DNA of 64,000 bases from Candidatus Omnitrophota bacterium (GCA_040755155.1 JBFMBP010000153.1:106010-170009), one strand, 5' to 3'; numbered from the stretch's first letter, positions 9,288-52,624 are shown. The notes: generated from the sequence alone by a model not told the origin. Made by a program: numbers and translations.

Positions 9288-9371
9288 TGCGTTTCCCCCA
9301 TCATTCCTTTTAGAACCTGTTTTCTTATTGAAACTATTCCAAATTGAATTCTTCATGTCGCCAATGGCGGT

Positions 9372-12074: not shown

Positions 12075-12161
12075 CACATGTTTCCCTCGTTTCGAAAGTC
12101 GCCACAATTCCTTTTCAAATCTACCATTAATATATAAACTCTTGTTTTGAAGGTTATTTAT

Positions 12162-15659: not shown

Positions 15660-15939
15660 CGCAAGTTTCCCTCGCATCGGTCCTTAAGCCGATTCTCTTT
15701 TGGAGAAAACCTTCGTTCATACGTTCCCGGCGAGATGGAGCGCCCCCCGCCCGCCGCCTTGGGTAGAATGTCTTTTGGGGAATGGATGACGAATGGATCG
15801 CGGGACTTTTCGCCTATTCCCCCTTTGCTTTATATTATCACAAAAATAGATAACGTACATAATAACAATCTAAAATATAACATAAAAATACTAAAATCAG
15901 CCGAAACCAGCCGGGCGGGAATTTCCTTCACTCTCATAT

Positions 15940-15968: not shown

Positions 15969-16005
15969 CTTACTGCAGGAAGGATGCGCGCGAGGTGGAG
16001 TCATC

Positions 16006-16437
16006 ATGAAAAACGAATTTTGGACGCTGGATAACGATTCTTTATTCGAGCCGAGGGCGGCGCCGTTGGCGGGGCCGAGCGCGGCGGCGGGATTTCCCTC
16101 GCCCGCCGACGATTACGTGGAAAAGCAACTGGACTTGAACGAATACCTGATTCACAACCCGGCGGCGACCTTTTTCGTGCGGGTGTCGGGAGATTCCATG
16201 ACCGGCGCGGGCATCCACCACGGCGACATCCTGGTGGTGGACCGCTCGCTGGAGGCGGCGGCGGGGATGGTGGTGGTGGCGGCGGTGGAGGGAGAGATGG
16301 TGGTGAAGCGGCTGCGGCGTCTGGAAGGCAAACTGGCGCTGACGCCGGACAACGACGCCTATCCCCCCATCGAGATCGGCGAGGAGACGGAATGCGCCGT
16401 GTGGGGAGTAGTTACCCATGCCATCCATGCGGTCTGA
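16006..16437 (+). CDS. umuD: UmuD-like S24 peptidase (LexA C-terminal-domain family), error-prone polymerase accessory subunit
   Basis: Ser/Lys dyad context [23 protein letters not shown] and VVKRL. AAG cleavage-site region. 143 aa. Overlaps the downstream Y-family polymerase gene. Confidence 0.85.
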
Positions 16438-17779: not shown

Positions 17780-17924
17780 ATAAAGCGAAAAATTCGGCGA
17801 ATCAATATCGTCGGGATTCGCTTCGTTCGACCAATCCTAATTCTAAAATCCTACGAAGCAAAAGAAAAACAATCCTCTCCCCCCACTTCCTGAATCGCGA
17901 TATAATGCTTCCAGGAGATGAACC

Positions 17925-18149
17925 ATGCTGAAAACATTCCATGCCAGTCTTTACCGCGATCGGAACGGCTATTCTGCTCAATGCTTGGAAGTGGACATCG
18001 TCAGCCAAGGCGCAACGAAAGAAGCCGCGCTCGCCAACCTTAAAGAAGCAGTCGAACTCTACTTCGAACCGCCTCAAGCTCATCCCATGCCGGAAATCCA
18101 CGCCTTCGAGGTTGACCTTGCCGCCGCTGAAACCGCTTCCGTTTCGTGA
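17925..18149 (+). CDS. hicB: HicB-family antitoxin (UPF0150 N-terminal domain only)
   Basis: MLKTFHASLYRDRNGYSAQCLEVDIVSQGATKEAALANLKEAVELYFE matches the HicB/UPF0150 fold. 74 aa. Directly precedes and overlaps a HicA-like ORF. Confidence 0.65.
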   Translation: MLKTFHASLYRDRNGYSAQCLEVDIVSQGATKEAALANLKEAVELYFEPPQAHPMPEIHAFEVDLAAAETASVS

Positions 18150-18342
18150 CGTTAAACGTAAACTCCCGTCCCTCGGCTTCCACCAAGCGTCTCAACGCGG
18201 CAGCCATGTCAAATTCATCAAAGAAACGCCTGACGGCGTTCGTGTTGTGATTGTTCCCATGCACAGAGAAATCGAGGTTGGAACTCTTAAAAACATCCTT
18301 CGTCTGGCGGGAATATCGACTGAAGAATTTATTGATCTCTAA
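18118..18342 (+). CDS. hicA: HicA-family mRNA-interferase toxin; TTG start inferred
   Basis: C-terminal 66 aa ..PFRDVKRKLPSLGFHQASQRGSHVKFIKETPDGVRVVIVPMHREIEVGTLKNILRLAGISTEEFIDL fits HicA (YcfA) including the conserved GSH. No ATG or GTG in frame near the domain start. TTG at 18118 sits 6 nt after GAGG. The long ORF from 17941 would overlap hicB completely and is rejected. Confidence 0.55.
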   Translation: MPPLKPLPFRDVKRKLPSLGFHQASQRGSHVKFIKETPDGVRVVIVPMHREIEVGTLKNILRLAGISTEEFIDL

Positions 18343-35572: not shown

Positions 35573-36568
35573 TTACGCGATCATCTTAATCAGATCGACG
35601 ACGCGGTTGGAGAAGCCCCATTCGTTGTCGTACCAAGAAAGAATCTTGATAAACGTCTTGTCGATCACTCTGGTGTATAGCGAATCGAAGATGGAAGAGT
35701 GCGGATTGCCGTTGAAGTCGCCGGATACCAGCGGCTCGTCGCAATACATCAGAATGCCTTTCATGGAACCTTCCGCCGCCGCTTTCACGGCCGCGTTGAT
35801 TTCATCGACAGTCACCGCTTGACCCAACTCGGCGGTCAAATCGACCACGGAAACGTTAGGAGTGGGGACGCGCATGGAGAAGCCGTCCAGCTTGCCGTTC
35901 AATTCCGGCATAACCAGGCCAATAGCGGCGGCGGCGCCAGTTTTGGTGGGAATCATATTCAAAGCGGCGGCGCGGGCGCGGCGCAAATCTTTATGAGGTT
36001 GATCCAAAATTTTCTGATCGTTGGTGTAGGAGTGGATGGTGGTCATGAGGCCGCGCTTGATGCCGAATTTTTCGTGTAAAACTTTGACGACCGGCGCCAG
36101 GCAGTTAGTGGTGCAGGAAGCGTTGGATAACACGTCATGCTTGGAACCGTCATAGATGCCGTCGTTCACGCCCATAACAATGGTAACGTCGCAGTCCTTG
36201 GAAGGAGCGCTGATGATGACCTTTTTGGCGCCCGCTTTCATATGGGCGGCCGCTTTGGCGCGATCGGTAAACAAGCCGGTGGATTCGACTACGATTTGCG
36301 CCCCCAATTTGGCCCAGGGCAAATTGGCGGGATCCTTTTCCGCGCAAACGGGAATAGCGGCGCCATCGATCACCAGGTCTTCTCCTTTAGCGGCGACGGA
36401 TCCGCCGTAAATTCCATGGATGGAATCGTATTTGTAAAGGTAGGCCAGCGTCTTAGCGTCGGTAATATCGTTGATGCCGACGATCTCGATGCCGCCCGCT
36501 TTCATAGCCGCCCGCGCTACCAGTCTTCCGATTCGTCCAAATCCATTGATTCCTACTTTAATCGCCAT
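35573..36568 (-). CDS. gap: Glyceraldehyde-3-phosphate dehydrogenase (type I)
   Basis: [20 protein letters not shown] Rossmann N-terminus. Active site [19 protein letters not shown] 7 nt upstream. Confidence 0.95.
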
Positions 36569-37070
36569 TGTTGTCCTCCTATGCGTTTAACCGCATTTTA
36601 TGGGTTTTTATATGGTGAATGAATACATTCGGCGTGTCGAAAAGAAGAGCGTTCCCACGGCTTCAAGGTTAGAAAAAAACCGTCGTCCAAACAGCCCGGC
36701 CCCTCTTTGTATAATCTATAAATAATAACCCGCTACGAAAGAATCGAAAAGGAGCATCCGCCTTTCCGAACAAATTTTCATAAATGGTTTTCTTTCGCCC
36801 AACTCAATCCTAACAAACAACGGAAAATAAGCTATATTTCAGGATCAACGAATGAATTTTAGGATGGGGTTCAGAATTTTTAGCGGCGCAATGTCAAGAA
36901 ACGATTTGACATTCGGATTTTCTTCGATCATAATATCGAGTAGATTACATTTGATGTAATATTATTTTTTGCCGTTGAGAGGATAAAGAGCGCCATTCGT
37001 TTCCATGCAGCGAGAAATTCCTTGTTGTTTGGAATAAAGCCATACCATCCGATGAAATGAGGGAGCAGTC

Positions 37071-37331
37071 ATGAGCGAAGAGACCATTGTATCCATCCAA
37101 CTGCGGCATATCGATCCCAGCCTGGTCGCCAAGTTGCAGAACCTATCCAAAACTTACGGCGTATCCGAAAAGATGTTGGTGGACATCGCCATCAAAAAAT
37201 TCCTCAATCTAGCGCTCGACGAACACTGCGAACTCATCGCCGAATATCAAACCTGTCAAAAACTGGGCCAGCGCTTTGGAGATATCGACCTTTTGGGCGC
37301 GCTGAATCGGAAAAGATTTAAAACCGCATAA
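37071..37331 (+). CDS. Small hypothetical protein (86 aa), possibly ribbon-helix-helix-like
   Basis: ORF with GAGGGAG RBS (..aaatgagggagcagtcATG). No confident domain. ..SEKMLVDIAIKKFL.. is reminiscent of RHH/antitoxin-like folds. Confidence 0.4.
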   Translation: MSEETIVSIQLRHIDPSLVAKLQNLSKTYGVSEKMLVDIAIKKFLNLALDEHCELIAEYQTCQKLGQRFGDIDLLGALNRKRFKTA

Positions 37332-37374
37332 ATTCTTCCAGCGGCGATTTGCGAGTTTCCTCCAGTCCGCGATC

Positions 37375-39024
37375 TTATGGCCATTGGAGAGCGGAAGGGG
37401 GAGGATTTTTCTCCGTCTCCGAAGCTGGCGATGAAAAGCGGAAGCGCCGCCAATCGATGCGCAACTTTCGCATTCGCGCCCGCAACGTATGTGGATTGAT
37501 GCGCAAAAGGGCCGCTGCGCCGTTCCGGCCTTCGATGCGCCCATTCGTTCTCACGAGAGCGGCTTCGATATGGCGTCGAACCGCCTCGTCAAGGGGAAGA
37601 AAAGCAAAATCCGAAGTGGGCGGCGTCTCCCCTTCGAAAAACGCCTTCGACGGTTTGCCCGCTGTCAGGTTCATCACTCCTAACGCCTTGGCCACATCCA
37701 AACGCCGTCCGTTGCCGATCAAAGCCGCCCTGTCCATGATGGCGCCCAACTCGCGGATGTTTCCCGGCCAGGAATAGGAAGTCAGCAATTCGATATCTTC
37801 TTGCGTGGGCAATAGCGCCGGCAGACCGAAACGAATAGCGGAACGTTCGGCGAAATAGTTCGCCATAACCGGCATATCTTCGAACCGGTCGCGCAAGGGG
37901 GGCAGGAAAATGGGAAAGACGGCGATGCGATACCACAAATCTTCCCGGAATCGTCCTTCGCCGACCATGGAAGCCAAATCCCGATGCGTAGCGGCGACGA
38001 GACGAACATCGACCTTGATAGGTTGGCGTCCCCCGACGCGCTCCAGCCAGCCGTCCTGCAGGATGCGCAACAGCCGAACCTGGACATTCAGAGGCAATTC
38101 CCCGATTTCATCCAGGAAAAGCGTGCCTTCATCGGCTCGCTCGAACCATCCTCGATAAGTCTCCACCGCCCCGGTGAAAGCGCCGCGCTCATGTCCGAAA
38201 AGTTGCGAGTCGATCAGTTCCGGCGGAATGGCGCCGCAATTCACGCGCATGATAGGACCGGAAGCGCGAGGAGAGCGTTTGTGAATGGCGCGGGCGACTA
38301 GTTCCTTGCCTGTGCCCGTTTCGCCGAAGATCAACACGGGAACATTGGAAGCGGCGACGCGGTCGACGCGCTCCATGACGGAACGCAACGTCGTATCCGC
38401 GCCGATGATGGTATCGCCCAGATCGCGGCGGCCAAGGCGGTTGAGCAACGAACGCTTGTCCGCTTCCGCCGCCTCGCGCAAAGCGGCCATTTCCCGCAGC
38501 CGATGATCGTTGTCCAAAGCGATGGCGAACGGCTCGAGGAGAATCTCCATCATAAGCGCATGGCGTTCCTGGAAATCTCGGCCCGGCGCGGCGATTAGAA
38601 GTAGAATTCCCAATGCGCCGCTGGGACAGCGCAAAGGTCCGGCCAAAAAATCGGCTTCCCTATTCATTGGCAAGAGAAAGTTCAAATCCGGAGCAAACGG
38701 CCTATCCCCTAGCCGATGCCTTACTCCGCCGTTAATGCGCCAATTTTGCAGCGCTTTCATTTGAGCCGAAGAACATTCCCGCCCCGTTTCGCCCAGAAGA
38801 GGCGGAGGCGCCGATAAGCCGAAGGCCGCCGCGTCCAGACGCGAACGTTCGGGATTGACGCGCATTACAATAACCTGAGAGAGAGGAAGATGGCGCACCA
38901 GCATTTGGGCGATGGTAACGGTAGATTCGCTAATCTCAATATGACGGCAGGCCTCGCGCCATACATCGAGAAGGATTTCATTAAACTTATCCATCATTTT
39001 TTGATTTTGTCCTATGACCAGCAT
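37375..39024 (-). CDS. Sigma-54-dependent transcriptional activator with N-terminal GAF domain (no receiver domain)
   Basis: AAA+ sigma-54 interaction domain with Walker A GETGTGKE and the GAFTGA loop (ERGAFTGAV). C-terminal Fis-type HTH (..AALLRINPHTLRARMRKL). N-terminal ~170 aa is GAF-like. Confidence 0.85.
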   Translation of the reverse strand: MLVIGQNQKMMDKFNEILLDVWREACRHIEISESTVTIAQMLVRHLPLSQVIVMRVNPERSRLDAAAFGLSAPPPLLGETGRECSSAQMKALQNWRINGGVRHRLGDRPFAPDLNFLLPMNREADFLAGPLRCPSGALGILLLIAAPGRDFQERHALMMEILLEPFAIALDNDHRLREMAALREAAEADKRSLLNRLGRRDLGDTIIGADTTLRSVMERVDRVAASNVPVLIFGETGTGKELVARAIHKRSPRASGPIMRVNCGAIPPELIDSQLFGHERGAFTGAVETYRGWFERADEGTLFLDEIGELPLNVQVRLLRILQDGWLERVGGRQPIKVDVRLVAATHRDLASMVGEGRFREDLWYRIAVFPIFLPPLRDRFEDMPVMANYFAERSAIRFGLPALLPTQEDIELLTSYSWPGNIRELGAIMDRAALIGNGRRLDVAKALGVMNLTAGKPSKAFFEGETPPTSDFAFLPLDEAVRRHIEAALVRTNGRIEGRNGAAALLRINPHTLRARMRKLRIDWRRFRFSSPASETEKNPPPSALQWP

Positions 39025-39150
39025 ATTTGACAGTTTATACTAGCATATTATATGGGATTATCCATCTTATTTAACGGATATTATGCGCTTCTTTTTATTT
39101 TTTATATCCTATATTTTTATAAATCAATACGTTATCTAATTATAAATATT

Positions 39151-39166
39151 TGGTTCATCCTTTGCT
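39151..39166 (+). promoter_or_regulatory. Candidate sigma-54 (-24/-12) promoter TGGTTCATCCTTTGCT upstream of sbp
   Basis: GG at 39152-39153 and GC at 39164-39165 with the canonical 10-nt spacing. TTGC -12 element. About 57 nt upstream of the sbp ATG, in an AT-rich divergent region shared with the sigma-54 activator gene. Confidence 0.5.
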
Positions 39167-39221
39167 TTATTAAGCTTATGAATACTCTGATTCAATTCAC
39201 GCTTGATTAGGAGACCAAAGC

Positions 39222-40241
39222 ATGTCGGCAAAATGTCATTTTAAAAGATGGTTAATTGCAGTGGTAGTATCATTCATTGGGAGCTGGGCGCCGGATTCGG
39301 CGAAAGCGGAGACAGAATTGCTTAACGTCTCCTACGATCCGACGCGGGAGTTTTATCACGAGTACAACCAAATCTTTCAAGCCTATTGGAAAGAAAAGGC
39401 GGGACAGGAGATCGTTATTCGCCAATCGCATGGGGGATCGGGAAAACAAGCGCGGGCGGTCATCGATGGCCTGGAAGCGGACGTAGTAACGTTAGCCCTA
39501 GCCTACGACATCGACGCCATCCATAAAAACGCCGATCTCCTGCCGGAAAACTGGCAATCGCGGCTGCCGAACAACAGCTGCCCCTATACGTCAACTATTA
39601 TTTTCCTCGTCCGCAAAGGCAATCCCAAAGGAATCCGCGATTGGGACGATTTGGCGAAGCCCGGCGTTTCCATCATTACTCCCAATCCGAAGACATCCGG
39701 CGGTGCGCGATGGAATTATCTGGCCACGTGGGGCTACGCCATGAAAAAGTGGAACAACGACGAAGTAAAAGCCAAAGAATTCGTTGGCAAAATTTTCCAG
39801 AACGTCCCGGTGCTTGATACGGGAGCGCGAGGGTCTACGAACACCTTCCTGCGGGGCATGGGCGATGTCATGCTCGCTTGGGAAAACGAAGCCCTGCTTG
39901 TCGTCAACCGCATCGGCAAGCACAATTATGAAATCGTCATCCCCTCCCTCAGCATCGTAGCTGAACCGCCCGTGGCTCTCATCGACAAAAACGTCGATAA
40001 ACATAAAACCCGCGAGGCGGCGGAAGCCTATTTGAACAATCTTTATGGCGAAAAAGGGCAAAATCTATGCGCGAAACATTATTACCGTCCCTCGGACGCC
40101 AAAATTCTGGATAAAAATAAGAAGATTTTTCCCGAAGTAAAAACCTTCACCATCGAGGAGATGTTCGGCGGTTGGGCGAAAGCGCAGGAAACGCATTTTT
40201 CCGACGGCGGCGTATTCGATCAACTCTATCAGACAAAATGA
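39222..40241 (+). CDS. sbp: Sulfate/thiosulfate ABC transporter periplasmic binding protein
   Basis: Signal peptide then [69 protein letters not shown], a canonical Sbp/CysP sequence. GGAG RBS. Confidence 0.9.
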
Positions 40242-40273
40242 CGATCTCGTTCACGCAGAAAGGATGATTCTTC

Positions 40274-41653
40274 ATGAAAGCAACGATCCATCATTTTTTA
40301 CTCTCGGCCATCGCATTATTTTTTATTGTCCCGATAAGCGCGAATGCTCAATCCAATCTCTCGGATGAAGTAAAGGAATTGAAGCAGATGGTGAAGCAGC
40401 TGCAGCAAAGGATCGAAGAGTTAGAAACCGCGCAAAAGAAGGAAAGCGCGCCTTTGCCTTCCTCGAAACCCGCCGCCGCTTCCCCCGAAACGAAAAAAAG
40501 CGGCGCCTCTATTCAGGCAACATGGAATAAGGGATTGGAATTTCAAACTCAAGACGGCTCCACAAGAATCAAACTCGGAGGCCGCGTGCAAAGCGATTGG
40601 TATACGGGAAATATAGAGGATAACGATTTCCCCGATGGAACCCGTTTCCGCCGCGTATGGCTGCGGCTGAACGGAAAAATCTACGACGATACGATCTTCG
40701 ATTGGCAATACGATTTTTCCGATAATGGACAAGCGAAGTTGAAGGACTTGTATATCGGATATACCGGCCTGGATTGGGCGACCATTCGCGTCGGCCAGTT
40801 TCGAGAACCTTTCGGTTTGGAACAATTGACGAACTCCAGCCACATCACCCTCATGGAGCGGGCGCCGCTCGATCTTCTCACGCCCAGCCGTCAAACCGGC
40901 GTAATGTTGGATGATGAAATTCTCGGCAAACGGATGACTTGGGCTTTAGGAGCCTTTAAAAATTCGAATGCCTTCGGCAACGGCTTCGAAAACGACGACG
41001 TCAATGGAGATTGGGCGGTAACCGGACGTTTAACCGGCTTGCCTTGGTTTGAGGACGGCGGTAAGCGCCTGCTGCATTTGGGGGCGAGTTACAGCCACCG
41101 CGATTGGGGCGGCGATCCCTTCCGCATCCAAGCGCGGGGATCGTTTTGCAGAGGGAACATTCTCGTCGATACGGGAACGGACAACGCCGCATACAATGTG
41201 GATCAATTCGAACTTTTTGGAGCAGAAGCGGCGCTCGTTCTCGGCCCTCTTTCCTTGCAAAGCGAGTACGTCCTCAACGATCTGCAATCGTCCGGTTTCG
41301 GGGATCAGACCTACGACGGCGCCTACGCTCAAATCAGCTACTTTCTTACCGGCGAATATCGCCCCTATCAGGCGGGAAGATTCGTCACTCCTTCGCCAAA
41401 GCGCAATTTCGGCAAGGATGGAGGCTGGGGCGCGTGGGAATTGGCGTTCCGCTACGGCTGGCTCGATCTCGATGATACTCCCGTAACCGCAGCGAAAGGC
41501 GGCGAATTGAACGATTACGCATTCGGCGTGAATTGGTACATGAATCCCAATTTCAGGATGATATGGAACTACGTTCATTCCGAATCCAGCGGAGCGAATC
41601 CGGACGACCTCGCGGCGGATATATTCCAAATGCGCTTCGATCTTTGTTTTTAA
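40274..41653 (+). CDS. Outer-membrane beta-barrel porin (phosphate-selective porin O/P-like family) with N-terminal coiled coil, embedded in the sulfate uptake operon
   Basis: Signal peptide MKATIHHFLLSAIALFFIVPISANAQ. Coiled-coil LSDEVKELKQMVKQLQQRIEELETAQKK. Alternating beta-strand pattern. C-terminal aromatic (..FDLCF) typical of OMP barrels. Confidence 0.65.
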   Translation: MKATIHHFLLSAIALFFIVPISANAQSNLSDEVKELKQMVKQLQQRIEELETAQKKESAPLPSSKPAAASPETKKSGASIQATWNKGLEFQTQDGSTRIKLGGRVQSDWYTGNIEDNDFPDGTRFRRVWLRLNGKIYDDTIFDWQYDFSDNGQAKLKDLYIGYTGLDWATIRVGQFREPFGLEQLTNSSHITLMERAPLDLLTPSRQTGVMLDDEILGKRMTWALGAFKNSNAFGNGFENDDVNGDWAVTGRLTGLPWFEDGGKRLLHLGASYSHRDWGGDPFRIQARGSFCRGNILVDTGTDNAAYNVDQFELFGAEAALVLGPLSLQSEYVLNDLQSSGFGDQTYDGAYAQISYFLTGEYRPYQAGRFVTPSPKRNFGKDGGWGAWELAFRYGWLDLDDTPVTAAKGGELNDYAFGVNWYMNPNFRMIWNYVHSESSGANPDDLAADIFQMRFDLCF

Positions 41654-41805
41654 GGAAATGGTGAGATATCCGAAGAAAGTTTAGTAACAACGACAAGTTG
41701 CATTGCATTTTAATATGACTTTACGAAAGCGGCTTAAATGAGCAAAGGCAGGCAGCGGCATGCCTTTGCCGCTCTACTCGTAGAATTTTCATAAGGAAAC
41801 CGTCT

Positions 41806-42645
41806 ATGCCATCACTCTCCAAACGTCGCGCCATCATTCCCGGATTCGGCCTTACGATGGGGCTGACGCTTACTTATTTGGGAACGATCGTACTGATTCC
41901 ATTATCCACTCTTTATTTAAAAACGCTGGGACTCTCCTGGCAGGAATTATGGAGCGCCATCGCGTCGCCGCGAGCTATCGCCTCTTATAAGTTGAGTTTC
42001 GGAGCTTCCCTGGCGGCGGCGGGCGTCAATACCGTATTCGGATTGCTTACGGCGTGGGTCTTAGTACGCTGCCGCTTTCCTGGCCGCAGCTTGATCGATG
42101 CGATGGTGGACCTTCCCTTCGCACTGCCTACGGCGGTAGCGGGCATCTCGCTCGCCGCCATCTATTCCGAAAACGGCCTCATTGGCCGCTATCTCTCCCA
42201 GGTTGGAATCCAAGGCGCCTACAGCCGTCTGGGCGTGGGGATTGCGTTGACGTTCATCGGCCTGCCCTTCGTCGTGCGCACCATCCAGCCCGTCCTGCGC
42301 GACATCGATCCCGAATTGGAAGAAGCCGCCGCCAGCCTGGGGGCTTCCCGTTGGCAGACGTTTTCCAAAATCTTGGCCCCCTTGCTGCTGCCCGCCTGCT
42401 TGACAGGCTTCGCGCTCGCTTTCGCGCGCGCGTTGGGAGAGTACGGCTCTGTCGTCTTCATTTCAGGCAATATGCCCATGCGCACGGAAATCGCGCCGCT
42501 GTTAATCATGACGAAACTAGAAGAATACGACTACGCCGGGGCCGCCGCCCTGGCCGTCTTCATGCTCAGCGTCTCTTTTCTGATTCTGCTGGGCGTCAAT
42601 CTGCTGCAACATTGGAGCCGCCGCCGCTTGGAACCAGTACGCTGA
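41806..42645 (+). CDS. cysT: Sulfate ABC transporter permease CysT
   Basis: ABC permease signature (..IDPELEEAAASLGASRWQTFSKILAPLL..). 279 aa. First of two permease genes. Confidence 0.85.
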   Translation: MPSLSKRRAIIPGFGLTMGLTLTYLGTIVLIPLSTLYLKTLGLSWQELWSAIASPRAIASYKLSFGASLAAAGVNTVFGLLTAWVLVRCRFPGRSLIDAMVDLPFALPTAVAGISLAAIYSENGLIGRYLSQVGIQGAYSRLGVGIALTFIGLPFVVRTIQPVLRDIDPELEEAAASLGASRWQTFSKILAPLLLPACLTGFALAFARALGEYGSVVFISGNMPMRTEIAPLLIMTKLEEYDYAGAAALAVFMLSVSFLILLGVNLLQHWSRRRLEPVR

Positions 42646-42651
42646 AAGAAA

Positions 42652-43539
42652 ATGACCATGACATCGAAAAAGATTCATCCCGTCATGAGCCGCAAGCAAG
42701 AATCGCGGATTGTTCGCGGTTTGCTTATATTCACATCGCTTTCATTTCTCGCTCTCTTTCTATTCGTTCCCTTGCTCGCGGTTTTTTATAATGCGCTGCG
42801 CGAGGGATGGGCGATGTATTGGACGGCGGTCAGCGAACCCGACGCCTTGGCGGCGATCCGGCTGACGCTGCTTATTACGGCCATCGCCGCGCCCGCGAAT
42901 CTGCTTTTCGGAATCTGCGCCGCCTGGGCGATCGCCAAATTCGAGTTCAAAGGGAAAAACCTGCTCGTCACCCTCATTGACTTGCCATTCACAGTCTCGC
43001 CGGTGATTTCCGGCGTCATTTTCATCATGATCTTCGGCGCGCATGGCTGGTTCGGCGCCTGGCTCGCGGCGCATGGCGTTCAAATCATTTTCGCTGCGCC
43101 TGGCATTGCGCTGGCCACCCTCTTCGTAACCTTTCCCTTCGTGGCGCGCGAATTGATTCCTTTGATGCAATCGCAAGGCGTCGACGACGAGGAAGCGGCG
43201 TTATCATTGGGCGCCAATGGCTGGCAGACGTTTTTCCGCGTTACGCTGCCCAACATCCGCTGGGGATTGTTATACGGCGTCATTCTGTGCACAGCGCGGG
43301 CCGTGGGGGAGTTTGGCGCCGTATCGGTAGTATCCGGACACATTCGCGGCAAAACCGTAACTATGCCTTTGCAAGTGGAGATTCTTTACAACGAATACAA
43401 CTTCACAGCGGCTTTCGCCGTGGCGTCGCTTCTGACTCTGGTAAGCCTGCTTACTTTGGGACTGAAGAAATTGGCGGAATGGAAAAGCCGGGAAATCATG
43501 TTGGAACGAGGAGTCAACGCGGCGACTCTGGAAGGATAG
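42652..43539 (+). CDS. cysW: Sulfate ABC transporter permease CysW
   Basis: Second permease (..[32 protein letters not shown]..). 295 aa. 6-nt gap after cysT. Confidence 0.85.
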
Positions 43540-43546
43540 ATCGGCG

Positions 43547-44647
43547 ATGAGCATTGAAGTTCAAGGAGTAACGAAATATTTCGGCGATTTCGCCGCACTG
43601 AGCAACATCAGCCTCGACGTGCAAACCGGCGAACTCGTGGCGCTGCTTGGGCCGTCGGGTTCCGGAAAAACGACGCTGTTGCGCATCATCGCCGGATTGG
43701 AAGCGCCGGATGAAGGCTCTGTATTTCTGCTGGGCGAAGACGCCGCCTACAAGAATCCCAAAGACCGTCGCGTGGGCTTCGTATTTCAACATTATGCCCT
43801 TTTCCGCCACATGACCGTCTTTGAAAACGTCGCTTTCGGGCTGCGAGTGCGCCCGCGCCGCTTGCGTCCCTCGAAGCAAGAAATTCGGGAAAAAGCGATG
43901 AGCCTGCTGAGCCTGGTGCAATTGGAACGCTACGCCAACCGGCTGCCCTCGCAACTCTCCGGCGGCCAACGGCAGCGCGTGGCTTTGGCGCGGGCGCTGG
44001 CCGTAGAGCCGAAAGTGTTGCTGCTGGACGAACCTTTCGGCGCTCTGGACGCCAAAGTGCGCAAGGAACTGCGCCGCTGGCTGCGCCGCCTCCACGACGA
44101 CATCCACGTTACCAGCGTCTTCGTCACCCATGACCAGGAAGAAGCGCTGGAAGTGGCCGATCGCGTCGTCATCATGAACCAAGGCCGCGTGGAACAAATC
44201 GGCGAACCGGAAGAAGTATACCATCGCCCGGCGACGCCTTTCACTTATAACTTTCTCGGCGACGTCAATATCTTTCACGGGCGCATGGACAACGGGCAAG
44301 TTCAGATTCTCAACCACGCGGAGGGCGACGCTTCCCTTCCCTCGCCCGGCGACGAGAAAACCGCTCAAATTTTCATCCGCCCCCATCTGCTCGATATCGG
44401 CTTCGAACCTTCGGGAAGCCACTGCTTCCGAGGCAAGGTTACGCATATCAATCCCGCCGGGCCGATCGTCAAAGTGGAATTAACCAGCGAGTGGGGCGCG
44501 CCGCTGCAAGCAAACCTTACTCAGGAGCGATATCGCGATCTCCACTTGCGAAAAAATATGGACGTATACGTCATCCCCAAAGAAATATGCGCCTTTTTCG
44601 ACAGCACAAGCGTAACAGAGAGACAGGGAGACAAGGAGACTTGGTGA
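43547..44647 (+). CDS. cysA: Sulfate/thiosulfate import ATP-binding protein CysA (with C-terminal TOBE domain)
   Basis: Walker [10 protein letters not shown], signature [15 protein letters not shown], Walker [13 protein letters not shown]-terminal about 120 aa is TOBE-like. 366 aa. Confidence 0.9.
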
Positions 44648-45033
44648 CAGGGGGACTTGGAGATTGGGAGATAAGGTTATAAGTTGAATATTATGGGATG
44701 TGCTTTGCTTTGATCTCACTCTGCTTCTCGGATCACTAAACCGAAGTTCCCCCACTCAAAAGTCATAAGTATATAATACTCTGGGAGATAAACCCAAACG
44801 GGAGGTTGATTACTGGGTACAAAAGCGCTATAGTGGAAAGCGAAGCAAATCCAGCGCGCGTTGTTGCATCGGATCCAGGGAATGGCGCTGGATCAAAAAA
44901 GAAAGAAACCGGGTAACGAATGTGGTTTCAGAAGAGCCGCATAGATGCAATGGTTCGCCAGGAGGCTCACCCTCTCAACCTTTCCACGGCCTGTGCATCA
45001 AACCAAAGGGCTTTTCGCATAAGTTGTTTATTC

Positions 45034-46905
45034 TTACGAATAGGAAGGCATATCGAAGGTTTCTAGAAAGATTCCGAAGGTTAGGATAATCATGAGGAAA
45101 TCGGTTTCGAAGGTGGTGTTGACCGATGCCCCTTCCGCCGAATATCTCGCTTTGAGCCGTTCTACGGCGGCGGGATTGAAGTATCCTTGACGTTTAATCG
45201 TTTCAGTGGAAAGAAGATCATTAACCCAATCGATATTTCTTTGTAACAAATAAGGGCTGCCCGGAGCCACGAAGCCGAATTTTTCCCGGTTCAGAATCGG
45301 CGTAGGCAAATAATTCTTCGCCATCGCCCGCAGAATATATTTTTCCGTCGCATCCTTAATCATCATGGAAGGGGGAATCGTCTTGACGAATTCCACTAGG
45401 TCTACGTCGAGAAAAGGATACCGCGCTTCTACGGAGTTGGCGTAAGCCGGGCGGTCGCCATGATCGGCGACGAGGTGATCGGCGATCCTCAGTTTGAAAT
45501 CGAGATACGAACGCTTGTGCATAGGATGGCGGTTGCGCAGTTTTTCTTTATCGACTAGCGGATGATGAATCGATTCGAAATCCTCCATCCGCGCCGCCAA
45601 CGCTTCGGAATAGATAGCGCTCTTGGTTTCGCGGAAAGCGAGAAAATCTCGTTCGTAGAAGAAATGGGAATCGCCCCATAATTCCTCCCGCCGTTCGTTT
45701 TCCAGCATCGTCTCCACGTCGAAGGGATCGTCCATATCCGACGAGCGCGTCTGGTCGAGACGATAGCCGACGTATCCCGCAAAGAGTTCGTCCGAACCTT
45801 CGCCTGTGAGCACTACTTTCAATCCCGCCCGGCGAACTAGTTCCGAAAGCGCCAGAGAACAGGCGTCGTAGGATTCCTTTAACGGACATTCCGCATGATA
45901 AATAGCGCTGCGCAGCCGTTCTCCGATTTGCGGCCAATCGAATTCGGTTTCGTGATGAATGGAACCGACGTATTCCGACATTAGGCGTTGATAACGCCGT
46001 TCGTCGATCTCGGCTTGAGAAAAGAGGACGGAAAAGGAATGGCGCCGCTCGTTGGGACGCGCCGCATGAATGACGGAGGCGACAAGGCTGGAATCCAATC
46101 CTCCGCTCAGATAGAAGCCGACCGGCACATCAGCGTTCAGCCGGTAGAGCACGGCTTGATTGAATAACTCGTCCAACCGCCGAATGTAATAGGATTCCTC
46201 CCGCGGCGGTTCGATATCCTGTTCTTCGGGATAAACCAAATCCCAATATTCCCGCGTCTCGATTCCGCTTTCTTTTACGCGTAAATAATGTCCCGATTTT
46301 AGGGAATATATGCCATTGAACATAGTGGCGGGACTGACGAGGCCGGGAAAGGTGAAAATCTGATCCAACGCCGTCGGATTCACTTTATGCTTTATAGAAG
46401 AATGCGTAAGCAGCGCTTTAATCTCGGAAGCGAAGAGAAGCATGCCATCCGCTTGCGCATAAAACAGCGGGGCGACGCCGAAATGATCCCGCGCCAAAAG
46501 CAACTCGCGCCGCTTGCGGTCGAAGATGGCGAAAGCGAATTGCCCGTTGAGGCGGCGCAAAAAATCCGTCCCCTCCTCTTCGTAGAGATGAGGCAGCGCT
46601 TCTACATCGCACCGTGTGCGAAAGACATGCCCTTTGCTTTCTAACTGGCTCCTCAATTCCTTATAATTGTATATCTCTCCGTTGCAGATGGAGACGATGG
46701 ATTGGTCTTCGTTGAAGTGCGGTTGATTGCCGCTGGAAAGATCGATGATCGAAAGGCGCGAGAATCCCAATCCCGCGCCGTCAGCGGCAAAATACCCCGT
46801 ATCGTCGGGACCGCGATGAGCCAGCATCTTCACCATCGCCGCCAGAGTATCATGGTCAATGTCGCATTCTCGATTCGAAGCGAAGATGCCAGCTATTCCG
46901 CACAT
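45034..46905 (-). CDS. asnB: Asparagine synthetase (glutamine-hydrolysing), class II amidotransferase
   Basis: Start trimmed so Cys follows the initiator Met (MCGIAGIF, the N-terminal nucleophile). Synthetase domain with SGGLDSS PP-loop. Confidence 0.85.
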   Translation of the reverse strand: MCGIAGIFASNRECDIDHDTLAAMVKMLAHRGPDDTGYFAADGAGLGFSRLSIIDLSSGNQPHFNEDQSIVSICNGEIYNYKELRSQLESKGHVFRTRCDVEALPHLYEEEGTDFLRRLNGQFAFAIFDRKRRELLLARDHFGVAPLFYAQADGMLLFASEIKALLTHSSIKHKVNPTALDQIFTFPGLVSPATMFNGIYSLKSGHYLRVKESGIETREYWDLVYPEEQDIEPPREESYYIRRLDELFNQAVLYRLNADVPVGFYLSGGLDSSLVASVIHAARPNERRHSFSVLFSQAEIDERRYQRLMSEYVGSIHHETEFDWPQIGERLRSAIYHAECPLKESYDACSLALSELVRRAGLKVVLTGEGSDELFAGYVGYRLDQTRSSDMDDPFDVETMLENERREELWGDSHFFYERDFLAFRETKSAIYSEALAARMEDFESIHHPLVDKEKLRNRHPMHKRSYLDFKLRIADHLVADHGDRPAYANSVEARYPFLDVDLVEFVKTIPPSMMIKDATEKYILRAMAKNYLPTPILNREKFGFVAPGSPYLLQRNIDWVNDLLSTETIKRQGYFNPAAVERLKARYSAEGASVNTTFETDFLMIILTFGIFLETFDMPSYS

Positions 46906-50166: not shown

Positions 50167-50713
50167 AAGAATGGTAACCAGTTTACCCGATTGAAGAGAA
50201 ATCCTTGTTTTTAAGCCCTGAAAGGGCGAAATAAAATAGCCCAGGCCAACGGCCTGGGAACAGGATCGGCAAAGACCTAAGCTCTGAAAGGGCGAAATAA
50301 TAAATTCGTATTTCTTCTCTTCCTACGGCTAAATAGTTACCAAGAATCGAAGAGAATATTCTTTTCTTGCTGCGCGATCGAATTGCGAAACCACGAAAAG
50401 GCTCGAATTCCTCGAAATTATTGAATCACGGATATCGCGGATTCTTTTAAATTTCACGGAAAAAAGCAACTCACGGCGCGTTCCCATACGCCAAATTTTT
50501 TCTTTTTTCGTGTTTTTCTTTTTCGTTTCGTGTTTTCGTGATTCGAAACGGCAATTCTAATCGACTACTTAAACTTCTTAATCCCGCATTACATAAGTTA
50601 CTAGTCACTTGTCACTAATCACTGTTTTTAGGATAAACAACCCTGGATTCAAGACTATTTGACAAAAAAAATGTAATATTTCCTTCTCCGCAAGATAGTA
50701 AGATAGTAGAAAG

Positions 50714-51037: not shown

Positions 51038-51628
51038 GTGGATTCGATCGGCAAGCAGCAGCAACAGGAAATCGGATTAGGTTTTCAACGGGGAGAGCGC
51101 TGGGCGTTCGAGGCCGCTGCGCGTCTCTTTTTTTCCCCGGTGGTCCATTTCGTCAGTCATCTTCTGCGCGACCAGGAAAAAGCCGTCGATCTGACGCAGG
51201 AAGCATTCTTTCTGGCGTGCCGGGCGCATAGAAAATTCGACGCTAGCCGGTCGTTCTTGCCCTGGCTTTATCAGATCGCGCGCAATTTGGCCTATAAAGA
51301 ATACAATCGCCGCAAAAAAGAACCCGAAGTTTCCTGGGAAGACGCCGAAGAATTCGCTGCGGCGGCGTTGGAGGCGGACGGCGGCGATCCCAGAGCGGCG
51401 GCGATGGAAGAAGAAACAATGGAACGGATTCAACGGGCGGCCAGCCGCTTAAAACCGAAATACCGGGACGTCTTGATCCTAAGAATGATGCAAGGTTTGC
51501 CGGGCGAACAAGTCGCCGAGATGCTGAACATTCCCGTCGCTACCGTCAATACGAGATTGTTCCGGGCTTTGGAGCATTTGCGGCGCTTTTCCCAACAAGA
51601 AGGTCTCTCGGAAAACGAATTGTTTTAA
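51038..51628 (+). CDS. ECF-subfamily RNA polymerase sigma factor (second ECF module in window); GTG start
   Basis: Region 2 ..VDLTQEAFFLACRAHRKFDASRSFLPWLYQIARNLAYKEY and region 4 ..RDVLILRMMQGLPGEQVAEMLNIPVATVNTRLFRALEHLRR. 196 aa. Confidence 0.8.
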   Translation: MDSIGKQQQQEIGLGFQRGERWAFEAAARLFFSPVVHFVSHLLRDQEKAVDLTQEAFFLACRAHRKFDASRSFLPWLYQIARNLAYKEYNRRKKEPEVSWEDAEEFAAAALEADGGDPRAAAMEEETMERIQRAASRLKPKYRDVLILRMMQGLPGEQVAEMLNIPVATVNTRLFRALEHLRRFSQQEGLSENELF

Positions 51629-51652
51629 TAAACTTAATCTTCAGCAAGATAA

Positions 51653-52624
51653 GTGAGAATCGGCATGAAATGCGCCACCGTAAAAAAAGAATTGCTGGCT
51701 TGGGCGGTGGATCGTCCGGGCGAATCCCCCCCGGCCGTTTGCCGGGATCATATCGCCCAGTGCGGCAATTGCGCGAAAGAATGGACGCGGCTGCAGAAGT
51801 GGGCCATTCTGCTGCGATCGAAAGAGGAATGGACGCCGGAAGAAGGATTTTTCGAACGGCTGACCGCCAACGCCATGCGCGAGAAGAACCGGGCCGCCCT
51901 CACCGAATCCACCCGCCGCGACCTGTCGTTGGATTCTAGCGGCGGTTTATTCGCTTTTCTGCGAACTCCACTCCAGCGCCGATGGATTTTCGCTGGGGCG
52001 GTTTTCGCCATACTGCTTCCTCTTGCCTTCATCGCTTACGGCTCCTACGACGCGATCGGTCAGATCGATTACGCGGGCGGCTTGGTCTTCAATCAAACCG
52101 CCTTTTCGAAAGAAATCCGCAAAGAAGACGTCGTATCGCGCGGAACCGCCATCCAAACAGCGGCGGATGCGGAAAGCATCGTCCGTCTCAAGGGCGGTTC
52201 GGAAGTATTCGTCGATTCCCGCAGCCGGGTGGCTTTCGTCGATAACCGCACGGTTCGGCTGGAATTGGGTCGAGCTTATTTCGACGTTGCGCCCAACCGC
52301 AAACCGTTCGAGATAACGACTCCCAACGGCGCCATTGCCGTTCTAGGCACCGCATTCGCCGTGGATGTGAACGGGGATGAGACGGTGGTCACCGTAACGC
52401 GAGGAACCGTGCAGTTATCGAACAGCGCCGGTCTCGTCCGCATCGCGAAAGGCGGCGAAGGGATTGCGAATCAAAATAAGCAGCCCATCCTGCGGGAAGC
52501 GCAACGAATGAATCAGACCATCAAATGGATATCTTCGCTGCTTGAAAAACGCAACGAGGAAGATTTGCGCACGTATTACCCTTCCCTGGCGCCTCCGAGG
52601 CCGCGAATGAGGCAAGTCAAATGA
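51653..52624 (+). CDS. Anti-sigma factor with N-terminal zinc-finger-type anti-sigma domain, one TM helix and periplasmic FecR domain
   Basis: CRDHIAQCGNC (HxxxCxxC-type). TM WIFAGAVFAILLPLAFIAYG. FecR-like ..GSEVFVDSRSRVAFVDNRTVRLELGRAYFDVAPNRKPFEITTPNGAIAVLGTAFAV. Start is GTG at 51653 or ATG at 51665. Confidence 0.75.
   Translation: MRIGMKCATVKKELLAWAVDRPGESPPAVCRDHIAQCGNCAKEWTRLQKWAILLRSKEEWTPEEGFFERLTANAMREKNRAALTESTRRDLSLDSSGGLFAFLRTPLQRRWIFAGAVFAILLPLAFIAYGSYDAIGQIDYAGGLVFNQTAFSKEIRKEDVVSRGTAIQTAADAESIVRLKGGSEVFVDSRSRVAFVDNRTVRLELGRAYFDVAPNRKPFEITTPNGAIAVLGTAFAVDVNGDETVVTVTRGTVQLSNSAGLVRIAKGGEGIANQNKQPILREAQRMNQTIKWISSLLEKRNEEDLRTYYPSLAPPRPRMRQVK

What the first reader, a model, noticed from the sequence alone, without database searches (positions are those of the whole stretch)
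37375..44647. Sulfate uptake operon (sbp, porin, cysT, cysW, cysA) apparently under a divergent GAF / sigma-54 activator with a -24/-12 promoter, not a CysB-type regulator
A TGG-N10-TTGC element (39151-39166) lies 57 nt upstream of sbp in an AT-rich 197-bp region shared with a divergently transcribed sigma-54 enhancer-binding protein. That activator carries an N-terminal GAF domain (small-molecule sensing) instead of a receiver domain. Sulfate assimilation loci are classically controlled by LysR-type CysB or CymR, so a sigma-54/GAF control and a dedicated outer-membrane porin gene inside the cysTWA cassette are both unusual.
Basis: partly seen in the sequence, partly recalled or inferred. Interest (0 to 1): 0.55.

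Follow-up and report, generated by a model that had tools for sequence, protein, structure and literature searches.

The report
Sigma-54 GAF activator controls sulfate uptake
A sulfate-import operon, with its own outer-membrane anion porin, most likely runs from a sigma-54 promoter switched on by the neighbouring GAF-domain activator, and the same undescribed regulator, operator and promoter recur next to sulfur-uptake genes in many uncultured Planctomycetota and allied phyla.

Summary
The genes are a GAF/AAA+/HTH enhancer-binding protein (EBP) on the minus strand, facing sbp, a Porin_O_P gene, cysT, cysW and cysA.

On its own the motif is not rarer than chance in the window. The support comes from comparison with related genomes:
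- The EBP family has a distinctive sensor domain. It occurs in at least 243 candidate stretches in species-representative genomes, mostly Planctomycetota MAGs.
- In 58 of 76 loci it faces sulfur or anion uptake genes. sbp is adjacent in 39.
- 39 of 41 sbp-facing intergenic regions have a sigma-54 promoter aimed at sbp, against 14% of shuffles.
- These regions also carry 2-3 copies of a 16-bp box (CYAKCATATWTSACGG) about 22 bp apart, at helically phased distances from the promoter.
- The window has three boxes (39018-39077), 89 bp before the promoter.

The closest relative drives tauE plus a porin the same way, so the porin recurs as well.

Not shown: rpoN in this genome, the ligand, and any experimental dependence. 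I found no paper describing this regulon. It is a new member of the bEBP/sigma-54 kind with a new physiological target.

The parts
37375..38997 (-). Enhancer-binding protein gene. It is 540 aa from the conserved start at 38997; the ORF itself extends to 39024.
   Evidence: Pfam Sigma54_activat 232 bits. It is 100% identical to an NCBI MAG protein of 540 aa. Family conservation begins at MMDKF, ORF residue 10.
38410..38997 (-). N-terminal GAF sensor domain plus a conserved coiled-coil linker (LREAAEADKRSLL). In 540-aa numbering, W13 and E15 are invariant and C17, H19 and C75 are at least 90% conserved.
   Evidence: GAF_3 scores 26.1 bits against a cut-off of 27. The AF2 model has pLDDT 88 and pTM 0.83. 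Foldseek PDB top hits are GAF domains such as 3k2n and 4g3k.
37690..38409 (-). AAA+ sigma-54 interaction domain and lid, with Walker A GETGTGKE (38302-38325), GAFTGA (38167-38184) and Walker B DEIGE.
37462..37578 (-). C-terminal Fis-type helix-turn-helix (…GAAALLRINPHTLRARMRKL).
   Evidence: HTH_8 scores 21.5 bits, E 1.9e-4, against a cut-off of 22. Some orthologues carry PF02954. The motif is highly conserved in the family.
39018..39033 (.). Operator (UAS) box 1, CCAGCATATTTGACAG.
   Evidence: 19.9 bits with a PWM trained without the window. It lies 21 nt upstream of the EBP start codon.
39040..39055 (.). Operator box 2, CTAGCATATTATATGG, the weakest of the three.
   Evidence: 13.7 bits. It starts 22 bp after box 1.
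39062..39077 (.). Operator box 3, CCATCTTATTTAACGG.
   Evidence: 20.9 bits. It starts 22 bp after box 2 and 89 bp before the promoter, which is the modal spacing in orthologues.
39078..39150 (.). Spacer of 15% GC rich in A/T tracts, with an exact IHF-consensus match, AATCAATACGTTA, at 39122-39134.
   Evidence: The IHF match is not conserved (2 of 41 orthologous regions), so DNA bending here is an inference.
39151..39166 (+). Sigma-54 -24/-12 promoter, TGGTTCATCCTTTGCT, with GG at 39152-39153 and GC at 39164-39165. The predicted transcription start is near 39177.
   Evidence: It matches 9 of 11 consensus positions. It ranks 11th of 127,958 positions with the orthologue PWM. An orthologous promoter is present in 39 of 41 loci.
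39209..39213 (+). Shine-Dalgarno sequence AGGAG for sbp.
   Evidence: Read directly from the sequence.
39222..40241 (+). sbp, the periplasmic sulfate-binding protein.
   Evidence: NF008022 499.7 bits against 288; TIGR00971 467 bits.
40274..41653 (+). OprO/OprP-family outer-membrane porin. It has a signal peptide (…ISANA/QS), an N-terminal coiled coil and a C-terminal Phe.
   Evidence: Pfam Porin_O_P 190.7 bits. Sequence features. It is 40% identical to the porin in the tauE-porin operon of the closest relative.
41742..41769 (+). GC-rich hairpin in the 152-nt gap between the porin gene and cysT. It may be a partial terminator or an mRNA-stabilising element.
   Evidence: The function is inferred only.
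41806..42645 (+). cysT permease.
   Evidence: TIGR02139 401.8 bits against 246.1.
42652..43539 (+). cysW permease.
   Evidence: TIGR02140 397.6 bits against 329.1.
43547..44647 (+). cysA ATPase, with TOBE and CysA C-terminal domains.
   Evidence: TIGR00968 388.5 bits against 342.75. Pfam ABC_tran, TOBE_3 and CysA_C_terminal.

Best explanation
The sbp-porin-cysT-cysW-cysA operon is transcribed from a sigma-54 promoter (39151-39166). The divergently encoded one-component activator (GAF sensor, AAA+ domain, Fis-type HTH) switches it on.

Proposed sequence of events:
1. Dimers of the activator bind three near-palindromic 16-bp boxes (39018-39077) spaced 22 bp apart, so all three lie on one face of the helix.
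2. When the GAF domain reports sulfur shortage, repression of the AAA+ domain through the conserved coiled-coil linker is relieved.
3. The bound dimers assemble into an ATPase ring.
4. The AT-rich spacer loops, and the GAFTGA loops remodel the closed sigma-54 holoenzyme complex about 90-140 bp downstream.
5. The cell then makes an outer-membrane anion channel together with the periplasmic binding protein and the inner-membrane ABC importer, a complete two-membrane route for sulfate.
6. Because the boxes lie within about 20-80 nt of the activator's own start codon, the activator probably also limits its own expression.

What is shown: gene identities; an intact sigma-54-activator signature; the conserved promoter, operator and phasing; and conserved linkage to sulfur-uptake genes across phyla.

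What is inferred: that the boxes are this protein's binding sites; hexamer assembly; looping; autoregulation; and the nature and sign of the signal.
For: - Domains and motifs. GAF fold.
- The family was defined by its sensor domain.
- Gene context in 76 usable loci: sbp adjacent and divergent in 39; TauE/SafE permease in 9; porin first, then sbp/ABC, in 3; sbp-cysTWA further upstream in 4; PBP_like_2 ABC in 2; APS kinase (with a sulfatase) in 1. Supporting calls: 11-13, 34.
- A sigma-54 promoter matching at least 8 of 11 consensus positions, with GG and GC required, points at sbp in 39 of 41 regions, against 14% of shuffles. At least one box is present in 39 of 41, against 1% of shuffles.
- Box hits: 156 in 31 kb upstream of EBP genes, against 12 in 1.12 Mb elsewhere.
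- Among those 'elsewhere' hits, L057 carries boxes plus a sigma-54 promoter in front of an sbp that is not linked to the EBP.
- The box-to-promoter distance clusters at 65-67, 77-78, 86-90 and 98-101 bp. The window's is 89.
- Window boxes score 19.9, 13.7 and 20.9 bits with a PWM trained without the window, and 0 of 5000 shuffles gave two or more.
- 8 of 9 TauE loci also have a divergent sigma-54 promoter.
- The closest relative (68% identical) has boxes and TGGCACAGGGATTGCT in front of tauE-porin.
Against: - The -24 half-site is off-consensus at two well-conserved positions (TGGTTC against TGGCAC). The site scores only 8.4 bits and ranks 11th in the window, not 1st.
- The bare consensus occurs at chance frequency in the window.
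- rpoN is not in the 64 kb, and I could not look it up for this genome.
- 18 of 76 family loci have neighbours with no recognisable sulfur link, so the family's regulon may be broader or may differ between lineages.
- Nothing here shows binding, sigma-54 dependence or the response to sulfur.
- The middle box is weak.
Confidence: 0.8

Rival explanations
1. The activator and the transporter are neighbours, but the operon in this organism is really transcribed from a sigma-70 promoter under an unlinked regulator (a CysB-, CymR- or other type). On this view the -24/-12 match is a decayed or non-functional remnant.
For: - The -24 element departs from the family consensus at two conserved positions and scores low.
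- A 9-of-12 sigma-70-like match lies at 39014-39041 on the + strand.
- The bare motif is at chance frequency in the window.
Against: - The GG and GC dinucleotides and the TTGC are intact.
- The promoter sits at the modal phased distance (89 bp) from three well-preserved boxes. Box preservation would be pointless without a sigma-54 target.
- The sigma-70-like match overlaps the boxes, and such matches occur at chance frequency (8 found against 7.2 expected).
- No LysR-type gene is in the window.
Confidence: 0.08
2. The module does work through sigma-54, but the cargo and the signal are another oxyanion (thiosulfate, sulfite, molybdate, tungstate or selenate) and not sulfate. The regulator would then be an anion-specific local switch rather than a sulfur-status sensor.
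For: - Alternative targets of the family are generic anion carriers: TauE/SafE, PBP_like_2 ABC systems and Porin_O_P.
- Sbp also matches the thiosulfate-binding CysP model above its cut-off (361 bits against 308).
Against: - Sbp, CysT, CysW and CysA all pass the curated sulfate-transporter cut-offs, while the molybdate (ModB) model stays below its own cut-off.
- One family locus pairs the activator with APS kinase and a sulfatase, which points to sulfur.
Confidence: 0.1
3. The conserved boxes belong to a different DNA-binding protein, or are primarily the activator's autoregulatory operator. The true enhancer for the sbp promoter would then lie elsewhere.
For: - The boxes sit very close to the EBP start codon (median 31 nt). 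That is the expected position for an autorepression site.
- No binding data exist.
Against: - The boxes travel with the EBP gene whatever the divergent target is.
- In L057 they reappear with a sigma-54 promoter in front of an sbp not linked to the EBP.
- Their distance to the promoter is helically phased.
- No other conserved element was seen in the anchored alignment between the boxes and the promoter.
Confidence: 0.07

Closest known systems
One-component GAF-domain bacterial enhancer-binding proteins (NifA, FhlA/HyfR, NorR; Aquifex Nlh1/Nlh2)
   Same: - The architecture is the same: GAF, then AAA+ with GAFTGA, then a Fis-type HTH.
- The sensor model superposes on GAF domains of sigma-54 regulators (3k2n, 4g3k, 4g3v) at TM about 0.5-0.65.
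- A long conserved helix links GAF to AAA+.
   Different: - The protein scores far below the curated cut-offs of the NifA, NorR and FhlA equivalogs, for example NorR 327.6 against 476.
- The sensor is only 12-16% identical to any solved GAF.
- The targets are sulfate or anion uptake genes, not nif, hyc/hyf or nor genes.
- The JGI names for family members, 'hydrogenase-4 / formate hydrogenlyase activator', are not supported by gene context.
SfnR of Pseudomonas putida (sigma-54-dependent activator of dimethyl-sulfone utilisation; Endoh et al. 2003 and 2005, as cited in PMC8234197)
   Same: It is a sigma-54 activator used in sulfur acquisition during sulfate starvation.
   Different: - SfnR is itself under CysB and controls organosulfur monooxygenase genes (sfnFG, sfnA), not the sulfate transporter.
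- Here the activator sits directly at sbp-cysTWA and has its own GAF sensor.
- I did not compare the two sequences.
CysB (LysR-type) control of sbp and cysPTWA in enterobacteria and pseudomonads
   Same: The physiological target is the same: the high-affinity sulfate/thiosulfate ABC importer. The presumed logic of induction under sulfur limitation is also the same.
   Different: - The regulator family, sigma factor and operator are all different.
- No LysR gene is present in the window.
- CysB inducers (N- or O-acetylserine) and anti-inducers (sulfide, thiosulfate) are only candidate ligands here. This point rests on established knowledge and was not tested.
OprP/OprO phosphate- and pyrophosphate-selective porins of Pseudomonas
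   Same: The protein belongs to the same Pfam family, Porin_O_P (190.7 bits). It has a signal peptide and a C-terminal Phe. Like OprP/OprO, it is co-expressed with an ABC importer for an oxyanion.
   Different: - Here the gene is embedded in a sulfate-uptake operon, or a tauE operon, and not a pho regulon.
- No NCBIfam model names it.
- Its selectivity is unknown.

Membership tests
Bacterial enhancer-binding protein (sigma-54 activator) | AAA+ sigma-54 interaction domain (PF00158) | tested here: met
   232 bits against a cut-off of 20.2, covering positions 1-167 of the 168-position profile.
Bacterial enhancer-binding protein (sigma-54 activator) | Intact GAFTGA loop and Walker A/B motifs | tested here: met
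   GAFTGA at ORF residue 281, GETGTGKE at 234 and DEIGE at 305.
Bacterial enhancer-binding protein (sigma-54 activator) | C-terminal Fis-type HTH DNA-binding domain | tested here: met
   HTH_8 has E 1.9e-4 and 21.5 bits, just under the 22-bit cut-off. Some orthologues carry PF02954, and the motif is nearly invariant in the family.
Bacterial enhancer-binding protein (sigma-54 activator) | ATP-dependent activation of the sigma-54 holoenzyme | not testable with these tools
   This needs biochemistry or genetics.
GAF-sensor EBPs: NifA, NorR and FhlA equivalogs | N-terminal GAF fold | tested here: met
   AF2 model with pLDDT 88. The best Foldseek PDB hits listed (50 shown, of 281 with E <= 0.001) are GAF domains or GAF-containing proteins. 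Pfam GAF_3 scores 26.1 against 27.
GAF-sensor EBPs: NifA, NorR and FhlA equivalogs | Score above the curated equivalog cut-off | tested here: not met
   NorR 327.6 against 476; NifA 321.8 against 528.85; FhlA 297.8 against 830. It is not a member of any named equivalog.
Sigma-54 (-24/-12) promoter | GG-N10-GC within TGGCAC-N5-TTGCW | tested here: met
   TGGTTCATCCTTTGCT matches 9 of 11 consensus positions. GG, GC and TTGC are intact; the positions after GG are off-consensus.
Sigma-54 (-24/-12) promoter | Conserved in orthologous upstream regions, correctly oriented and phased to an enhancer | tested here: met
   Present in 39 of 41 regions against 14% of shuffles. Spacing classes are 65-67, 77-78, 86-90 and 98-101 bp, and the window's is 89.
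Sigma-54 (-24/-12) promoter | rpoN present in the genome | not testable with these tools
   No Sigma54 domains were found in any of the 47 window ORFs. The rest of the genome is not available.
Sigma-54 (-24/-12) promoter | Transcription start about 12 nt downstream of the GC, and dependence on sigma-54 | not testable with these tools
   This needs 5'-end mapping and a reporter in an rpoN mutant.
CysB/LysR-type sulfate regulon | LysR-type regulator encoded at the locus | tested here: not met
   No HTH_1 or LysR_substrate hit in any window ORF of at least 110 aa. An unlinked gene cannot be excluded.
CysB/LysR-type sulfate regulon | CysB binding sites upstream of sbp | not tested
   No reliable CysB site model was available. 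The region is instead filled by the three EBP-associated boxes and the -24/-12 element.
Sulfate/thiosulfate ABC importer (Sbp/CysP-CysT-CysW-CysA) | All four components above curated NCBIfam cut-offs | tested here: met
   NF008022 499.7 against 288; TIGR02139 401.8 against 246.1; TIGR02140 397.6 against 329.1; TIGR00968 388.5 against 342.75.
OprO/OprP porin family | Porin_O_P domain with a signal peptide and a C-terminal aromatic residue | tested here: met
   190.7 bits against 20.9. Signal peptide MKATIHHFLLSAIALFFIVPISANA and a terminal F.
OprO/OprP porin family | Anion (sulfate) selectivity | not testable with these tools
   This needs bilayer or liposome assays.

The most novel reading that the evidence does not exclude
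This EBP family is the main sulfur-assimilation regulator, a functional analogue of CysB, in many uncultured Planctomycetota, Hydrogenedentota, Omnitrophota and neighbouring phyla. On this reading it reads cellular sulfur status directly through a divergent GAF domain whose conserved Cys17/His19/Cys75 bind or react with a sulfur metabolite such as sulfide or persulfide, thiosulfate, APS or O-acetylserine. That would be a new ligand class for GAF domains and a new sigma-54 physiological role.
Probability: 0.35. Interest if true: 0.72.

Novelty: new member of a known kind. Interest (0 to 1): 0.58.

Why it matters
Control of sulfate assimilation has been worked out mainly for proteobacteria (CysB/Cbl), firmicutes (CymR, CysL), actinobacteria and cyanobacteria. 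For Planctomycetota, Omnitrophota, Hydrogenedentota and related, largely uncultured lineages I found nothing described.

This analysis supplies three things:
- A candidate regulator family.
- Its operator (three phased 16-bp boxes).
- Its promoter class.

All of them can be tested directly by heterologous reconstitution.

It also does the following:
- It adds inorganic sulfur uptake to the list of processes placed under sigma-54.
- It corrects misleading automatic names ('hydrogenase-4 / formate hydrogenlyase activator').
- It points to OprP-like porins as dedicated outer-membrane entry points for sulfur oxyanions.
- It offers a compact sensor-and-promoter pair that could be developed into a sulfur-status biosensor once the ligand is known.

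Tried and rejected
- Bare consensus count in the window. TGG-N8-TTGCW gives 4 hits against 3.7 expected and TGG-N8-TTGC gives 13 against 8.8. This is not evidence by itself.
- IHF site as a conserved part of the module. There is an exact consensus match at 39122-39134, but only 2 of 41 orthologous regions have one. I kept it only as a local possibility.
- Sigma-70 promoter and terminator scans of 36400-45200 are at chance level.
- Rfam finds nothing in or near the locus.
- Sequence search of the sensor domain against PDB gives only E about 0.3 to cyanobacteriochrome GAFs. Fold comparison was needed.
- Looking up the source contig of the exact protein to reach the rest of the genome, and hence rpoN, returned 'not on record'.
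- The search for a cultured host found none. The best 120 hits of two searches are all from MAGs or metagenomes.
- Representative-library search with the sensor profile gave 111 clusters at E <= 1e-30 and 935 at <= 1e-10. Most top hits are fragments, and the weaker ones include generic multi-GAF proteins, so it does not give a clean family size.
- Literature. Six searches and five papers read found no description of sigma-54/EBP control of sbp-cysTWA. The only precedents found are SfnR, and sigma-54 regulators of sulfur oxidation (FisR I recall from my own knowledge; I did not read it here).
- Neighbours of 18 family loci could not be tied to sulfur. They include hdr/mvh-like genes, DUF1559 pseudopilins, L,D-transpeptidase and proteins with no family.

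Full report
**What is at the locus**

- On the minus strand, 37375-39024 encodes a 549-aa ORF. It has a sigma-54 interaction AAA+ domain (PF00158, 232 bits), an AAA lid, a weak N-terminal GAF_3 match and a C-terminal Fis-type HTH (21.5 bits against a cut-off of 22).
- Walker A (GETGTGKE), GAFTGA and Walker B (DEIGE) are intact.
- On the plus strand follow five genes:
  - sbp (39222-40241)
  - a Porin_O_P outer-membrane porin (40274-41653) with a signal peptide and a C-terminal Phe
  - cysT (41806-42645)
  - cysW (42652-43539)
  - cysA (43547-44647)
- The four transporter parts all pass NCBI's curated sulfate-transporter cut-offs, and the molybdate model does not pass its own.
- The exact activator protein is in NCBI as a 540-aa product of a 'Candidatus Omnitrophota bacterium' MAG. 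That start (38997) is also where family conservation begins, so the intergenic region is 224 bp, not 197 bp. It is 26-27% GC in a 51% GC window.

**The motif itself**

TGGTTCATCCTTTGCT is at 39151-39166.
- The spacing is the canonical GG-N10-GC, that is TGGNNN-N5-TTGC.
- The motif matches 9 of the 11 specified consensus positions. It departs at the two bases after GG (TT instead of CA).
- As a bare pattern it is not informative: TGG-N8-TTGCW occurs 4 times in the window against 3.7 expected.
What follows does.

**A conserved family with a conserved neighbourhood**

The activator has full-length relatives at 60-68% identity, nearly all from metagenome-assembled Planctomycetota, plus Hydrogenedentota and others.
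- I aligned the sensor-domain part of 20 of them (A1). This avoids picking up every sigma-54 activator.
- I scanned one genome per species with it.
- Of the 76 loci with at least 1 kb upstream:
  - 39 have sbp immediately divergent, usually followed by cysTWA
  - 9 have a TauE/SafE anion permease
  - 3 have a porin first, then sbp/ABC
  - 4 have sbp-cysTWA further upstream
  - 2 have a PBP_like_2 ABC system
  - 1 has APS kinase followed by a sulfatase
- That is 58 of 76 next to sulfur or anion uptake genes. The other 18 have neighbours I could not tie to sulfur.
- The closest relative of the window protein (68% identity) faces a tauE-porin pair. That porin is 40% identical over its full length to the window's porin.
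- The porin is therefore a recurrent, co-regulated partner of two different inner-membrane sulfur-anion carriers. It appears mainly in the non-planctomycete members (L012, L037, L048, L071, L080, L081, L084).

**A conserved promoter and operator**

- In the 41 non-redundant sbp-facing intergenic regions, 39 carry a sigma-54 promoter on the sbp strand with GG and GC and at least 8 of 11 consensus positions. Typical examples are YGGCAC-N5-TTGC, such as TGGCACGTTCCTTGCA. Only 14% of shuffled regions do.
- Anchoring the regions on that promoter exposed a repeated upstream element.
- An iterated PWM gives C-Y-A-K-C-A-T-A-T-W-T-S-A-C-G-G, an imperfect palindrome (CCRTCA-TATW-TGAYGG). It is present in 2-3 copies whose starts are 20-24 bp apart, or 43-44 bp when the middle copy is degenerate.
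- The boxes are highly specific. There are 156 hits of at least 14 bits in the 31 kb just upstream of EBP genes, against 12 in the other 1.12 Mb of fetched DNA.
- Among those 12, L057 carries boxes plus a sigma-54 promoter in front of an sbp that is not adjacent to the EBP.
- The boxes accompany the EBP gene whatever the divergent target is, and 8 of 9 TauE loci also have a divergent sigma-54 promoter.
- The distance from the last box to the promoter falls into classes about one helical turn apart: 65-67, 77-78, 86-90 (the mode) and 98-101 bp. This is expected if the activator must sit on a defined face of the DNA relative to the polymerase.

**The window fits this template exactly**

- With a PWM trained without the window, its three boxes are CCAGCATATTTGACAG (39018-39033), CTAGCATATTATATGG (39040-39055) and CCATCTTATTTAACGG (39062-39077). 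They score 19.9, 13.7 and 20.9 bits.
- In 5000 dinucleotide-preserving shuffles of the region, 0.34% gave one hit of at least 14 bits and none gave two.
- No other place in the 64 kb reaches 14 bits. The only other hit of at least 12 bits is at 50444 (13.5 bits).
- Box spacing is 22 and 22 bp, and box 3 starts 89 bp before the promoter, which is the modal class.
- A promoter PWM from 38 orthologues ranks the window site 11th of 127,958 positions, at 8.4 bits. The site is good but clearly weaker than its relatives because of the TT at the two positions after GG.
- Between boxes and promoter lies a 15% GC, A/T-tract-rich spacer with one exact IHF-consensus match (39122-39134). That match is not conserved in orthologues (2 of 41), so bending is plausible but not established.

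**The sensor**

- An AlphaFold2 model of residues 1-200 built on A1 is confident (pLDDT 88, pTM 0.83).
- Its best PDB matches are GAF domains, including those of sigma-54 regulators (3k2n, and Aquifex Nlh1/Nlh2 4g3k/4g3v). TM is about 0.5-0.65 and identity only 12-16%.
- Sequence search of PDB finds nothing significant.
- The protein falls far below the cut-offs of the NifA, NorR and FhlA equivalogs. It is a GAF-type EBP but belongs to no named family.
- In 540-aa numbering, the invariant residues include W13, E15, the GPL motif at 120-122 and H146. C17, H19 and C75 are at least 90% conserved. The helix joining GAF to AAA+ (LREAAEADKRSLLxRLGR) is almost invariant.
- From what is known of GAF and receiver EBPs with such coiled-coil linkers, I infer negative control of the ATPase that is relieved by the signal.
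- The conserved Cys and His residues make a sulfur metabolite or a thiol-reactive signal attractive, but nothing here identifies the ligand.

**Mechanism proposed, and how sure each step is**

- Shown:
  - gene identities
  - the intact activator signature
  - the conserved sigma-54 promoter
  - the conserved, phased tandem operator
  - conserved linkage to sulfur uptake across several phyla
- Inferred with high confidence: the activator binds the boxes and activates the sbp-porin-cysTWA promoter through sigma-54.
- Inferred with moderate confidence:
  - three dimers nucleate the hexamer
  - the AT-rich spacer loops
  - the boxes, 21-80 nt from the activator's start codon, also give autoregulation
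- Speculative: the signal is sulfur limitation read by the GAF domain.
- The 152-nt gap between the porin gene and cysT holds a GC-rich hairpin (41742-41769). It might give higher expression of sbp and the porin than of the membrane subunits. That is conjecture.

**What could not be tested**

- No rpoN and no LysR-type regulator occur among the 47 non-overlapping ORFs of at least 110 aa in the window.
- No cultured organism appeared among the best hits, so experiments will need heterologous reconstitution.

**Comparison with the known**

- The module works like any one-component GAF-EBP/sigma-54 system.
- It is not a member of NifA, NorR or FhlA.
- JGI's automatic names for the family, 'hydrogenase-4 / formate hydrogenlyase transcriptional activator', are contradicted by gene context.
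- The nearest functional precedent is SfnR of Pseudomonas putida, a sigma-54 activator for dimethyl-sulfone use. SfnR is itself CysB-regulated and does not control the sulfate transporter (titles cited in PMC8234197).
- A 2025 cross-phylum survey of sigma-54 regulons discusses Planctomycetia but not sulfate uptake (PMC12316311).
- The 2011 survey (PMC3162934), the Desulfovibrio regulome (PMC4641369) and the Geobacter RpoN regulon (PMC2725144) do not mention it either.
- Further searches returned nothing relevant.
- The library lacks most subscription journals, so 'undescribed' is provisional.

**Verdict**

- This is an ordinary mechanism applied to an unexpected target, conserved across poorly studied phyla, with operator and promoter now defined.
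- It is a new member of a known kind.
- Interest is 0.58.

Noticed in passing
window 6624-15677 (-): Three tandem paralogous large ORFs (910, 911 and 1171 aa) each end in an FGE-sulfatase (SUMF1-like) domain. They lie in the lowest-GC stretch of the window (0.39-0.48). The large N-terminal parts match no family.
   Followed up: no
window 50214-50258 (-): An Rfam Acido-Lenti-1 sRNA match (47.7 bits against a gathering score of 37) is the only Rfam hit in the window. It lies near an ECF sigma / FecR pair (51038-52624). A weak operator-like box (13.5 bits) is at 50444.
   Followed up: no
window 16001-18342: A GC-rich island (0.615 against about 0.50) carries a Y-family polymerase (IMS/DUF4113, 16418-17779) and a HicA toxin domain ORF (17941-18342). 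It may be horizontally acquired.
   Followed up: no
window 41742-41769 (+): A GC-rich hairpin (GCAAAGGCA…TGCCTTTGC) sits in the unusually long 152-nt gap between the porin gene and cysT. The gap folds better than shuffles (z = -2.2). It may be a partial terminator or a stabiliser inside the operon.
   Followed up: partly
window 36569-37374: About 800 nt between gap and the 3' end of the activator gene has no family-assignable ORF. It contains an 11-of-12 sigma-70-like promoter match (36906-36934, +) and a sigma-54-like string at 37123-37138 with no operator boxes.
   Followed up: partly
window 44694-44709 (+): TGGGATGTGCTTTGCT is a second -24/-12-like string, 47 nt after the cysA stop, and points into the antisense of asnB. 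There are no boxes nearby and it scores 8.3 bits. It is probably chance.
   Followed up: partly
L002, L006, L013, L016, L017, L021 and L030, between the sbp promoter and sbp: A sub-clade of orthologous loci carries a 10-of-11 sigma-54-like element, TGGCAC-N5-GTGCA, on the opposite (activator-directed) strand about 25 nt downstream of the sbp promoter. L028 and L053 have similar 9-of-11 matches. It could be a sigma-54 promoter for the activator gene, or a palindromic site. It is absent from the window.
   Followed up: partly
L084 5340-5450: Two copies of a roughly 39-nt direct repeat (GCCAGTGGTGGCAACCATGGGCAAGATGCCC.TGCCACG) lie in the long leader between the sigma-54 promoter and tauE in the closest relative.
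   Followed up: no
family-wide: JGI's automatic annotation calls many members 'hydrogenase-4' or 'formate hydrogenlyase transcriptional activator'. Gene context does not support this. All of the best 120 hits in two searches come from MAGs or metagenomes, and none from a cultured strain.
   Followed up: partly
L083 7523-8971 (-): In one Phycisphaerales locus the gene divergent from the activator encodes a fusion of a sulfate-type binding protein (SBP_bac_11) with a DsrE/DsrF-like sulfur-relay domain.
   Followed up: no
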